12,414 nt of DNA, taken from positions 1-12,414 of the forward strand of contig CAZECW010000064.1 of the NCBI GenBank assembly GCA_964510585.1, written 5' to 3'. Shown one piece after another: positions 8,611 through 9,842 of the stretch (the stretch's first letter is position 1; each line of letters starts with the position of its first letter). The notes under the pieces were generated by a model. The model was not told the origin of the DNA. It did no database searches and worked only from the letters and a program-made list of their open reading frames with translations. The translations under genes and the position numbers were made by a program. Source of the DNA: an uncultured archaeon. Lineage in GTDB: Archaea; Asgardarchaeota; Jordiarchaeia; Jordiarchaeales; Jordiarchaeaceae.

Positions 8611-9558
8611 ATGCCAGAATCAATAGAGAAAATGGCTTCCAGATCAAGCAGAGCTTTAGTTTTTGGAGTAGGCGGTGGCGGGGACATTCTGGGCACACTG
8701 CCAACAAGTGGATATTTGAATACTCTAGGAGTGGAGACAATTCTGGGGGGTGTGAGCTGGGAACGTATAGTTTTTGACCCAAAACCTGGCCCAAGATCGC
8801 TAGAGGAAATACAAAATATAGAAAAAATATCTGATAGCACCGCCTACACATGTAAAGACTCTCAAACCCGCGAAGGGGTGTACTTTCAGTGTAGCAACAT
8901 GGCTAATTTTCTTAATAAGAGGACAATAATTGTTGATGTTTCAAAAACCGCGAGGGAAATCTCAAGAGGGCTGCAGGAAACTGCGGAGAAACTTGACTTG
9001 AACCTAATAATTGGTGTAGATGTGGGAGGAGACATTCTAGCCAGCGGATCTGAGCCTGGGCTGAGGAGCCCCCTTTGTGATGGTACAATACTTGCCGCAC
9101 TCAGTTTACTGAAAATTCCAACAGCCATAGCTGTTTTTGGTTCAGGTTGTGACGGAGAACTTACACTAGATGAGCTTATTGGGAGGTACGAGCTTGTGGC
9201 CAAGAAATCTGGATATTTGGGTGCGCGAGGCATGACTCCCGATGATTTTTCAATTATGAGTAAAGCCGTAAAGTATGTTAAAACCGAAGCCAGCCTTCTC
9301 CCTCTAAAAGCTTGGAAGGGAGAGCACGGAGTTTTCAAGATTAGAGATGGTGCCCGTAGCGTAAATCTCTCAATCATCTCAACTATTAGCTTTTATTTTG
9401 ATACTAAGACTGTCTATAGTTTGAGCCCCATCGGGAAGGCTCTCAGGAATGCCAAAAATTTTCAAGATGCAAACAAAAGACTTCATAAACTCGGTCTAAC
9501 TACAGAGTACGACTTTGAGTTAAACTATCTGAAAAATGTTGACACTCTCCGCGACTAA
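8611..9558 (+). CDS. DUF1152 domain-containing protein (C-terminus altered by an inserted mini-element)
   Basis: G.GGGGD, GVDVGGD and G.G.DGEL motifs typical of DUF1152. The last codons (V/DTLRD*) lie inside the element at 9539-9817. Confidence 0.85.
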   Translation: MPESIEKMASRSSRALVFGVGGGGDILGTLPTSGYLNTLGVETILGGVSWERIVFDPKPGPRSLEEIQNIEKISDSTAYTCKDSQTREGVYFQCSNMANFLNKRTIIVDVSKTAREISRGLQETAEKLDLNLIIGVDVGGDILASGSEPGLRSPLCDGTILAALSLLKIPTAIAVFGSGCDGELTLDELIGRYELVAKKSGYLGARGMTPDDFSIMSKAVKYVKTEASLLPLKAWKGEHGVFKIRDGARSVNLSIISTISFYFDTKTVYSLSPIGKALRNAKNFQDANKRLHKLGLTTEYDFELNYLKNVDTLRD

Positions 9559-9735
9559 AGTTGCGGGGATTCTTGCTTCTGGCTCATCGGGAGCCTTAGG
9601 AAGCAATGGGTGTGCCATCACCCAGTTAGCACGCCCTTCCCTTTAGGGGAACGGCGTCTATGTTGGCACCCTCATGGGGGCTGCGTCTTGTTTAGCCTCT
9701 TAAAGCCCAAGCCAAACCTTTCAGCTACCAACAAT
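9519..9735 (-). ncRNA. Putative TnpB-type omega/reRNA (about 195-nt scaffold plus flank-derived guide)
   Basis: Consecutive stems at 9690-9717, 9666-9684, 9631-9657, 9607-9624 and 9575-9604, then the right-end hairpin at 9547-9568. Loop UGGCA (9613-9617) can pair with terminal UGUCA (9544-9540) to form a pseudoknot. The G-U pairs in the 9690-9717 stem and the pseudoknot work only on the minus strand. The 5' end is inferred from the TATA box and the 3' end assumes a ~20-nt guide. Confidence 0.65.
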
Positions 9736-9794
9736 CATCATCCTTTCCTACTTTCTTATAAGCTTTTTGGGCGATTCATCCCCGCGACTAAAGT
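9549..9794 (+). repeat. 13-bp direct repeat CCGCGACTAAAGT at 9549-9561 and 9782-9794 (cores of the right- and left-end TnpA-binding hairpins)
   Basis: The identical 13-mer is seen twice, each time centred in a hairpin with a TAAA/TTTA loop. Confidence 0.9.
9754..9770 (-). promoter_or_regulatory. Archaeal BRE + TATA promoter inside the mini-element, pointing into the RNA scaffold
   Basis: Minus strand CCAAAAAGC-TTATAA-GA: a purine-rich BRE directly followed by a TATA box (9761-9756). Predicted TSS about 9735-9730. Confidence 0.6.
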
Positions 9795-9842
9795 CGGGGG
9801 CTTTCTCGCCAAGGGTTGTAATAAAAGAACAAAGCATCCCAA

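What the first reader, a model, noticed from the sequence alone, without database searches (positions are those of the whole stretch)
9519..9770. Protein-free, self-promoted TnpB-type guide-RNA cassette with intact pseudoknot
Seen: inside the 279-bp element a BRE/TATA box (9770-9756, minus) precedes about 195 nt that fold into five stems plus the right-end hairpin. The 6-nt loop AUGGCA (9618-9613) can pair with the terminal UGUCA (9544-9540). The G-U pairs in the first stem and the pseudoknot are viable only on the minus strand, which points to the RNA strand. Established: TnpB omega/reRNAs overlap the transposon right end, close with a 3' pseudoknot, and take their guide from the flanking DNA. 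PATE-like derivatives that supply RNAs in trans are known in bacteria. Inference: this is an RNA-only module that has lost both proteins but kept promoter and scaffold. It would load a TnpB (or nuclease-dead TnpB derivative) encoded elsewhere with guide CAUUUUUCAGAUAGUUUAAC. An archaeal library of such stand-alone guide cassettes would be a natural programmable multi-guide system.
Basis: partly seen in the sequence, partly recalled or inferred. Interest (0 to 1): 0.85.

Follow-up and report, generated by a model that had tools for sequence, protein, structure and literature searches.

The report
Gene-less archaeal transposon carrying TnpB guide RNA
This 279-bp stretch is one of at least 66 copies of a gene-less IS200/IS605 mini-transposon in a hot-spring archaeon that keeps the old transposase promoter and the folded guide-RNA scaffold of the TnpB nuclease, which makes it a clear archaeal example of a kind of element already described in bacteria.

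Summary
Window 9539-9817 (sense = minus strand) is a 279-bp, ORF-less IS200/IS605 derivative (PATE/MITE). It sits 3' of TTAC and ends in TCAA. The assembly holds at least 66 copies.

It is an internal-deletion product. The left end, with the native tnpA BRE/TATA, is fused to a decayed tnpB 3' end plus the right end. A 'NWVMAHPLL' TnpB-tail remnant survives, but the frame is broken.

The last ~125 nt fold into four hairpins. The same architecture occurs at the 3' ends of full-length tnpB genes and in stand-alone elements in 35 of 151 genomes of the phylum, with strong covariation. The proposed pseudoknot (loop UGGCA with terminal UGUCA, positions -6..-2) is highly conserved. It has the same geometry as the solved ISDra2 omega-RNA pseudoknot, but covariation does not prove it statistically.

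tnpA and tnpB genes of the same family are in the genome. No RNA data exist, so transcription and loading in trans are inferred.

Stand-alone omega RNAs and PATEs that use TnpB in trans are already published. The likeliest role is selfish homing and retention, not a host 'multi-guide system'. I class it as a new member of a known kind, of moderate interest.

First readers of this scan flagged other copies of this element in the same genome with the same reading.

The parts
9818..9821 (-). TTAC: insertion target of the element and presumed TnpB TAM
   Evidence: 28 of 29 aligned copies have TTAC immediately 5' of the left end, and the flanks are otherwise unrelated.
9773..9817 (-). Left end. AAAG guide tetranucleotide (9804-9801), bulged hairpin (9800-9780), enclosed by the outer stem TTGGCGA/TCGCC
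   Evidence: Conserved in all copies and in full-length tnpA-tnpB copies at about 90% identity.
9755..9770 (-). BRE/TATA-like promoter (CCAAAAAG CTTATAAG), inherited from tnpA
   Evidence: The same motif lies about 35 nt upstream of the tnpA ATG in full-length copies C169, C162, C49, C42, C150 and C71. Independent MITEs of a sister species retain it too. Its activity is inferred.
9735..9754 (-). Variable linker at the deletion junction. It defines a minor subfamily (this copy) and a major subfamily
   Evidence: Most variable part among copies: diversity 0.12 against 0.044 in the scaffold. Subfamily sequences are seen.
9664..9734 (-). 5' part of the scaffold (stems S1-S3 of the single-sequence fold). 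Decayed tnpB coding sequence around the RuvC-III motif
   Evidence: Folds. Homology to 'EAHRDVAGALNI' of tnpB is seen by translation. Not conserved outside this MITE family.
9627..9660 (-). Stem S4 (two-part hairpin)
   Evidence: 13 of 13 pairs show changes on both sides across 73 homologues. There are compensatory differences from the tnpB-linked copies of the same genome.
9607..9624 (-). Stem S5, with the 6-nt loop AUGGCA (9618-9613) that forms the 5' strand of the pseudoknot. Corresponds to stem 1 of the ISDra2 omega RNA
   Evidence: 4 of 6 pairs covary. The loop UGGCA is nearly invariant. The geometry is compared with PMC10097598.
9573..9606 (-). Stem S6 (outer UUGCUUC/GAAGCAA enclosing a small hairpin). 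Corresponds to stems 2 and 3 of ISDra2
   Evidence: 6 of 6 outer pairs covary. The tnpB-linked C8-type copies have UUGGAGG/CUUCCAA at the same place.
9546..9572 (-). Right end: GAAT guide tetranucleotide (9572-9569) and the RE hairpin with a UUUA loop
   Evidence: Conserved in all copies and across the phylum, with covariation in the hairpin.
9539..9545 (-). Terminal GUGUCAA. UGUCA (9544-9540, positions -6..-2) is the 3' strand of the pseudoknot, and TCAA is the TnpA cleavage site
   Evidence: The positions equal those of the ISDra2 pseudoknot.
9519..9538 (-). Flank that would serve as the guide (CAUUUUUCAGAUAGUUUAAC). It is antisense to the last codons of the DUF1152 gene
   Evidence: By position only. 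The flank is unique in the genome apart from chance 16-nt near-matches.

Best explanation
Window 9539-9817 is a non-autonomous IS200/IS605 (IS608-like) element, a PATE/MITE. It arose by internal deletion of a tnpA-tnpB insertion sequence. What remains is the left end with the tnpA promoter, joined to the last ~195 nt of tnpB plus the right end. That region encodes the TnpB guide (omega) RNA.

Shown here: the element structure, its high copy number, its origin from a tnpB 3' end, the conserved and covarying scaffold, and the presence of tnpA and tnpB of the same family in the genome.

Inferred mechanism: TnpA from the 7-10 full-length copies excises the top strand and pastes it 3' of TTAC. The inherited promoter transcribes the scaffold from about 9732 through the right end into the flank. 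TnpB made by full-length copies binds this RNA in trans. Using the flank-derived guide, it cuts the scarless TTAC+flank donor joint left after excision, so that recombination with a sister chromosome restores the element. On this reading the mini-element parasitises both proteins of its parent.
For: Copies and boundaries: 138 BLAST pieces and 29 complete copies with unique flanks, TTAC and TCAA ends. 66 MITE-type right ends have flanks. MITE k-mer depth is about 40-250 times the flank depth in three hot-spring metagenomes.

Origin: the left end plus TATA equals that of full-length tnpA-tnpB copies. The scaffold is 73% identical to tnpB 3' ends (C8, C54, C152, C45) and retains 'NWVMAHPLL' next to frameshifts and stops.

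RNA structure: four-hairpin architecture is recovered independently in five diverged members. Model R1 finds it in 35 of 151 genomes. About 10 of 30 fetched hits overlap full-length tnpB, and 13 show no tnpB nearby. Covariation is strong.

Geometry: pseudoknot, UUUA-loop hairpin and stem order match the ISDra2 omega RNA (PMC10097598).

Proteins: Y1 TnpA and TnpB genes are in the genome. The family conserves RuvC-I Asp, RuvC-III Asp and an alternative Glu.

Precedent: stand-alone omega RNAs and PATEs act in trans.
Against: There is no expression evidence of any kind. Among the 29 copies, paired positions are only marginally more conserved than unpaired ones (0.036 against 0.060, permutation p about 0.05). 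That weak difference is expected for a young neutral repeat family. No full-length tnpB with a scaffold identical to the MITE's was found. The nearest tnpB-linked scaffold is 73% identical, and that parent's tnpB is fragmented at contig ends, so an intact cognate TnpB is not proven (C81 is intact but more distant). The promoter lies directly beside the left-end structure, so its retention could be incidental. This copy's guide has a T5 run at +3..+7, a possible archaeal terminator. Its RE hairpin also has two mismatches on the sense strand.
Confidence: 0.6

Rival explanations
1. Inert relic. The element is simply a TnpA-mobilised MITE. The tnpB 3' remnant is carried along because the deletion happened to end there, and any RNA made from it has no function.
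For: The copies are about 90% identical and look like a recent burst. The signal of structural constraint among copies is weak. The TATA box abuts the left-end structure, so any functional left end would keep it. No RNA evidence exists.
Against: Independent deletion derivatives in a sister species (about 205 bp) and in other genera also keep the S4-S6 scaffold, far more than the ~45-nt hairpin plus cleavage site. Between the MITE and the tnpB-linked copies the reading frame is destroyed, yet the stems are kept through compensatory changes.
Confidence: 0.28
2. Host-level multi-guide system. The roughly 70-200 stand-alone guides have been co-opted, with an active or dead TnpB, for regulation or defence (TldR-like or CRISPR-like use).
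For: There are many guides with their own promoter. TnpB exaptations are known.
Against: The guides are just the insertion flanks and match only their own loci. Other matches are chance 16-nt near-hits, or a second repeat family and a duplicated contig. The TnpB genes sit in mobile tnpA-tnpB units and keep catalytic Asp residues and a conserved alternative Glu. There is no fixed, orthologous, immobilised locus.
Confidence: 0.05
3. The stems act as single-stranded DNA structure for transposition, or as a cis element affecting neighbouring genes (terminator or antisense RNA), and not as a guide RNA.
For: TnpA recognises DNA hairpins. Both strands fold about equally well. In this copy the RE hairpin pairs better on the plus strand.
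Against: Many conserved G.U pairs exist only on the tnpB sense strand. S4-S6 lie inside tnpB coding sequence in full-length copies, where the TnpB omega RNA is known to map. The architecture matches ISDra2 omega RNA.
Confidence: 0.07

Closest known systems
PATEs / stand-alone omega RNAs of IS200/IS605 elements (Geobacillus stearothermophilus PATE-like elements, Meers et al. 2023, PMC10055086; stand-alone omega RNAs acting in trans, cited in Altae-Tran et al. 2023, PMC10691335)
   Same: No ORF. Left and right ends shared with autonomous copies. The element retains the omega-RNA region, needs TnpA and TnpB in trans, and takes its guide from the flank.
   Different: The host is archaeal (a hot-spring member of Thermoproteota). 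Copy number is very high (at least 66 in the assembly). The tnpA promoter is fused directly to the scaffold. The cognate TnpB family has a Gly at the canonical RuvC-II Glu position. No experiment has been done.
IS608 (Helicobacter pylori) end code
   Same: The same four tetranucleotides: TTAC target, AAAG before the left hairpin, GAAT before the right hairpin, TCAA at the right end. Subterminal bulged hairpins. No target duplication.
   Different: The IS608 code is recalled from the literature and was not re-read here. This element is protein-free and archaeal, and it has an extra outer stem around the left hairpin.
ISDra2 TnpB omega RNA (cryo-EM, Nakagawa et al. 2023, PMC10097598)
   Same: Order of modules: a hairpin whose loop pairs with nucleotides -6..-2 (pseudoknot), a stem enclosing a hairpin, a terminal hairpin with a UUUA loop at about -20, then the guide.
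   Different: No sequence similarity. The stem-3 equivalent is shorter. There is an extra 5' hairpin (S4) plus about 70 nt. The TAM is TTAC instead of TTGAT.
Haloarchaeal PATEs (Haloquadratum walsbyi, Dyall-Smith et al. 2011, PMC3119063)
   Same: Archaeal, ORF-less IS200/IS605 derivatives with palindromic ends.
   Different: Those were described before TnpB guide RNAs were known. I did not check whether they retain a scaffold.

Membership tests
IS200/IS605 non-autonomous element (PATE/MITE) | Subterminal imperfect hairpins at both ends, no terminal inverted repeats | tested here: met
   The LE hairpin 9800-9780 and the RE hairpin 9569-9546 are in the same orientation and are conserved in all copies.
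IS200/IS605 non-autonomous element (PATE/MITE) | Insertion 3' of a fixed tetranucleotide, without target-site duplication | tested here: met
   TTAC precedes the left end in 28 of 29 copies. The flanks are unrelated and no duplication is present. A relative's contig reads ...9538 followed directly by GTAA.
IS200/IS605 non-autonomous element (PATE/MITE) | No protein-coding capacity | tested here: met
   All three sense frames have stops. Antisense stop-free stretches switch frame between copies through 1-nt indels.
IS200/IS605 non-autonomous element (PATE/MITE) | An autonomous relative with the same ends and a Y1 (HUH) TnpA in the genome | tested here: met
   PF01797 hits at C7, C169, C162 and C81. 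Their left ends are about 90% identical to the MITE's.
IS200/IS605 non-autonomous element (PATE/MITE) | Mobility (excision and insertion by TnpA) | not testable with these tools
   Only indirect evidence: many copies at unrelated loci.
TnpB omega (re)RNA | Encoded at the tnpB 3' end and running through the right end, on the tnpB sense strand | tested here: met
   The homologous scaffold overlaps the last codons of tnpB in C8, C81 and about 10 relatives. The MITE keeps a decayed TnpB C-terminal remnant.
TnpB omega (re)RNA | Conserved secondary structure supported by covariation | tested here: met
   S4, S5, S6 and the RE hairpin: 35 of 42 pairs show changes on both sides. 86.8% of cells are paired against 70.0% shuffled and about 41-48% when partners are slid. 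The alignment was fitted to the model, which favours the nested stems.
TnpB omega (re)RNA | Pseudoknot between the nucleotides just 5' of the guide and an upstream loop | tested here: inconclusive
   UGGCA/UGUCA pair in 97% of cells and sit at -6..-2, as in ISDra2. Only one-sided changes occur. The disruptive A.C combination occurs once, about as expected by chance. Both strands are also constrained by TnpA (TCAA) and, in full-length copies, by coding (MAHP).
TnpB omega (re)RNA | Transcribed and bound by TnpB, and directs cleavage of TAM+guide targets | not testable with these tools
   No RNA run was listed for this sequence. No biochemical data exist.
TldR-type nuclease-dead TnpB system | Loss of RuvC catalytic residues and an immobilised, host-linked locus | tested here: not met
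   The TnpB family keeps RuvC-I Asp and RuvC-III Asp plus a conserved Glu in E[RQHY][GK]TS. Gly at RuvC-II fits the published 'rearranged' class. The genes lie in mobile tnpA-tnpB units.

The most novel reading that the evidence does not exclude
The mini-element may be an RNA-level parasite evolving on its own. Its scaffold has drifted to 73% identity from every tnpB-linked scaffold in the genome, yet it keeps all stems through compensatory changes. With its captured promoter it could out-compete the parent elements' own guide RNAs for TnpB. The resulting 70-200 promoter-equipped guides would then form a standing library that the host or the element could exploit beyond homing, for example in genome rearrangement control or conflict with a second repeat family whose left end serves as one copy's guide.
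Probability: 0.1. Interest if true: 0.7.

Novelty: new member of a known kind. Interest (0 to 1): 0.35.

Why it matters
The element gives a clean, high-copy archaeal example of an omega-RNA-only transposon derivative. Its boundaries, scaffold model and TAM (TTAC) are defined, and it points to a thermophilic TnpB family of the RuvC-II-rearranged type. This could be useful for testing whether TnpB homing works in trans in archaea, and for mining compact thermostable RNA-guided nucleases. It does not change the current picture of TnpB biology.

Tried and rejected
- Rfam scan of the whole window at E up to 1: no family matched.
- Public sequencing runs: no RNA holder was listed for the locus or the element. 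The two runs labelled metatranscriptomic hold only a relative's flanks and a left-end hairpin, not the scaffold.
- Alternative closing helix GACGC/GUGUC proposed by RNAalifold: the 5' partner is present only in this genome's MITE family and is absent from all relatives. Rejected as a conserved feature.
- Partial hits to positions 10-205 of the query first looked like full-length parents. They are contig-end copies of the major MITE subfamily.
- Search for a full-length tnpB carrying a MITE-identical scaffold: none found in the assembly or in loose ends of metagenome contigs.
- Antisense open frame of up to 93 aa across the element: not conserved in frame. Rejected as coding.
- Guides matching elsewhere in the genome: only chance near-matches, one case of a second repeat family and one duplicated contig.
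- A regex search for left ends near relatives' hits was too strict to be informative.
- Test of stem conservation among the 29 copies: only marginal.

Full report
WHAT IS THERE

The window is contig C64 of a 217-contig, 3.78-Mb archaeal assembly. Its genes are archaeal housekeeping genes: NOG1 GTPase, proteasome subunit, RtcA and DUF1152. The NOG1 protein's nearest clusters are mostly Thermoproteota. The locus is held by hot-spring metagenomes.

The finding lies in a 279-bp element at 9539-9817. Its sense strand is the window's minus strand. A search of the organism's own genome returned 138 matching pieces. Twenty-nine are complete copies. Aligned with 30-nt flanks, they share the whole 279 bp at about 88-95% identity and then diverge completely. 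Many contigs end inside the element, so the true number is higher. Sixty-six MITE-type right ends have at least 20 nt of flank. In three metagenomes the element's k-mer depth is about 40-250 times that of the flanks.

On the sense strand 28 of 29 copies are preceded by TTAC, and all end in GTCAA, with no target duplication. AAAG precedes the left hairpin and GAAT precedes the right hairpin. From my recollection of the IS608 literature, and as earlier first-reader notes of this scan also said, this is the IS608 cleavage and guide code.

ORIGIN

Full-length relatives exist in the same genome. Seven contigs carry TTAC, the same left end (about 90% identical), a tnpA gene (PF01797) and the start of tnpB. 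Four contig ends carry a tnpB C-terminus followed by a right end. These are 73% identical to window 9539-9664. Contig C81 holds a complete, more distant tnpA-tnpB unit of about 1.76 kb with the same right-end terminus.

In the full-length copies it sits about 35 nt upstream of the tnpA ATG. It is therefore the native tnpA promoter, brought next to the tnpB 3' end by an internal deletion.

The 'scaffold' is decayed tnpB coding sequence. One frame still reads NWVMAHPLL, compared with NWAMAHPLEVQI* in C8 and NWVVAHPLLL in C81. Frameshifts and stops now interrupt all three sense frames. Antisense stop-free stretches of up to 93 aa change frame from copy to copy through 1-nt indels and are not coding. 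The element is indeed protein-free.

IS THE RNA STRUCTURE REAL?

Single-sequence folding is significant but does not distinguish the strands: z = -3.65 on the minus strand and -3.36 on the plus strand.

The comparative evidence is much stronger. I built a covariance model from MITE copies plus tnpB-linked right ends. It found the motif in 35 of 151 genomes sampled from the phylum. Of 30 fetched loci, about 10 overlap the 3' end of a full-length tnpB, about 7 keep only a tnpB remnant, and 13 have no tnpB nearby. Some of the last group are short TTAC-to-TCAA elements of about 216-428 bp. A sister species has its own MITEs of about 205 bp with different deletion breakpoints.

On 73 aligned homologues the four 3' hairpins are paired in 86.8% of cells. 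This compares with 70.0% after shuffling and about 41-48% when partners are slid. Thirty-five of 42 pairs show changes on both sides (38-sequence version). The four hairpins are S4 at 9660-9627, S5 at 9624-9607, S6 at 9606-9573 and the RE hairpin at 9569-9546. The alignment was fitted to the model, which favours these stems. However, five diverged members fold into the same architecture on their own.

Within the genome, the MITE and the tnpB-linked copies differ by compensatory changes. In S4, ACGCC/GGCGU becomes GUGCC/GGCAC. In S6, UUGCUUC/GAAGCAA becomes UUGGAGG/CUUCCAA. The MITE has meanwhile lost the reading frame. The structure was kept while the coding capacity was lost.

Many conserved G.U pairs exist only on the tnpB sense strand. 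Together with the tnpB orientation, this settles the strand. The 5' stems (9734-9664) are peculiar to this genome's MITE family and remain untested.

PSEUDOKNOT

The loop UGGCA (9617-9613) and the terminal UGUCA (9544-9540) are almost invariant across 73 sequences. They can pair in 97% of cells. The middle pair occurs as G.U (52), A-U (10) or G-C (6). The only disruptive combination, A.C, occurs once, which is about what independent variation predicts. Covariation therefore does not prove the pairing.

Both strands are also under other constraints. TCAA is the TnpA cleavage site. In full-length copies the loop encodes the conserved MAHP motif.

Supporting evidence comes from the solved ISDra2 TnpB-omega RNA structure (PMC10097598). 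There, nucleotides -6..-2 pair with the loop of stem 1, and stem 4 has a UUUA loop at -20..-17. Here UGUCA occupies -6..-2, the partner is the loop of S5, and the RE hairpin has UUUA at -21..-18. The module order S5, then S6 enclosing a small hairpin, then the RE hairpin, mirrors stems 1, 2/3 and 4. This mapping is my inference from the paper's text.

RNAalifold suggested an alternative terminal helix, GACGC/GUGUC. It is confined to this MITE family and is rejected as a conserved feature.

PROTEINS AVAILABLE IN TRANS

TnpA is present. TnpB of this family is present as one intact gene (C81, 424 aa) and as N- and C-terminal pieces of the closer parent at contig ends. One copy (C7) is frameshifted. 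The assembly cannot show whether an intact closest parent exists.

The family has Gly where the RuvC-II Glu normally sits. It conserves RuvC-I Asp, RuvC-III Asp and a Glu in E[RQHY][GK]TS. This fits the 'rearranged catalytic site' class, in which an alternative Glu from the next strand is proposed to compensate (PMC10691335). That assignment is an inference. It gives no reason to call the protein nuclease-dead.

Named relatives of the C81 TnpB are in Bathyarchaeia, Culexmicrobium, Terraquivivens, Methanomethylicia and other archaeal MAGs.

FUNCTION

No RNA data could be found, so transcription and use in trans are inferred.

The guides are simply the insertion flanks. Apart from chance near-matches, they occur once in the genome. 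That is what TnpB homing needs: after TnpA excision the donor joint TTAC+flank is cut and repaired from a sister copy (Meers et al., PMC10055086). [quoted passage not shown] The most economical reading is a non-autonomous element that exploits both TnpA (to move) and TnpB (to be retained). It is not a host multi-guide system.

Caveats:
- Among the 29 copies, stems are only marginally more conserved than loops (p about 0.05).
- The TATA box abuts the left-end structure, so its retention may be incidental.
- This copy's flank has T5 at +3..+7, which may terminate archaeal transcription inside the guide (general knowledge, untested).
- This copy's RE hairpin has two sense-strand mismatches.

VERDICT

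This is a new (archaeal, very high-copy, promoter-fused) member of a known kind. Other first readers of this scan noted other copies of the same element in this genome with the same reading. None of those notes had been followed up.

Noticed in passing
window 8611-9558 (+), junction at 9538/9539: The element sits inside the 3' end of the DUF1152 gene. The last 6 codons and the stop now come from the element's right end. Removing it would give a different tail, 22 codons before the stop. The Pfam domain ends before the junction. A relative's contig reads ...9538 followed directly by GTAA, which looks like an empty site.
   Followed up: partly
G000:C62:12659-12707 (right flank of another copy), also C75, C207, C90, C25, C213, C47, C193, C113: The first ~49 nt after this copy's right end belong to another repeat family. 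In C75 that repeat starts directly after a TTAC. This suggests tandem insertion of two TTAC-targeting elements. This copy's guide would then match the junctions of the other family.
   Followed up: partly
G000:C12:8956-9158 and G000:C154:2119-2321: The right flank of the C12 copy recurs at 98% identity in C154, directly after a TTAC and without the element, but with a different upstream sequence. It could be a strain variant, a duplication or a rearrangement at the element.
   Followed up: partly
L060 / L089 (G004:C141), L048, L032, L042: A sister species has its own ~205-bp ORF-less derivatives of the same IS family. Their deletion breakpoints differ, but they keep the TATA box and stems S4-S6. 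Its closest full-length tnpB appears frameshifted near the N-terminus.
   Followed up: partly
TnpB genes: G000:C81:5075-6346 (-), C8:2-325, relatives L063, L066, L075, L080, L083: The whole TnpB family has Gly in place of the canonical RuvC-II Glu (V-V-G-[DNER]-L). It also has an invariant Glu in E[RQHY][GK]TS just before the zinc finger. This fits the published rearranged-catalytic-site class.
   Followed up: partly
window 9628-9774, in metagenome runs X2 and X3: Low-depth contigs join 9628 to 9774, skipping 145 nt. This is a shorter derivative lacking the promoter and the 5' half of the scaffold.
   Followed up: no
window 9735-9754: Two subfamilies differ in the linker. The major one carries a second TATA-like box (GGTATATAAATAG) directly upstream of the scaffold. 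The window copy belongs to a minor subfamily shared with about six other copies.
   Followed up: no
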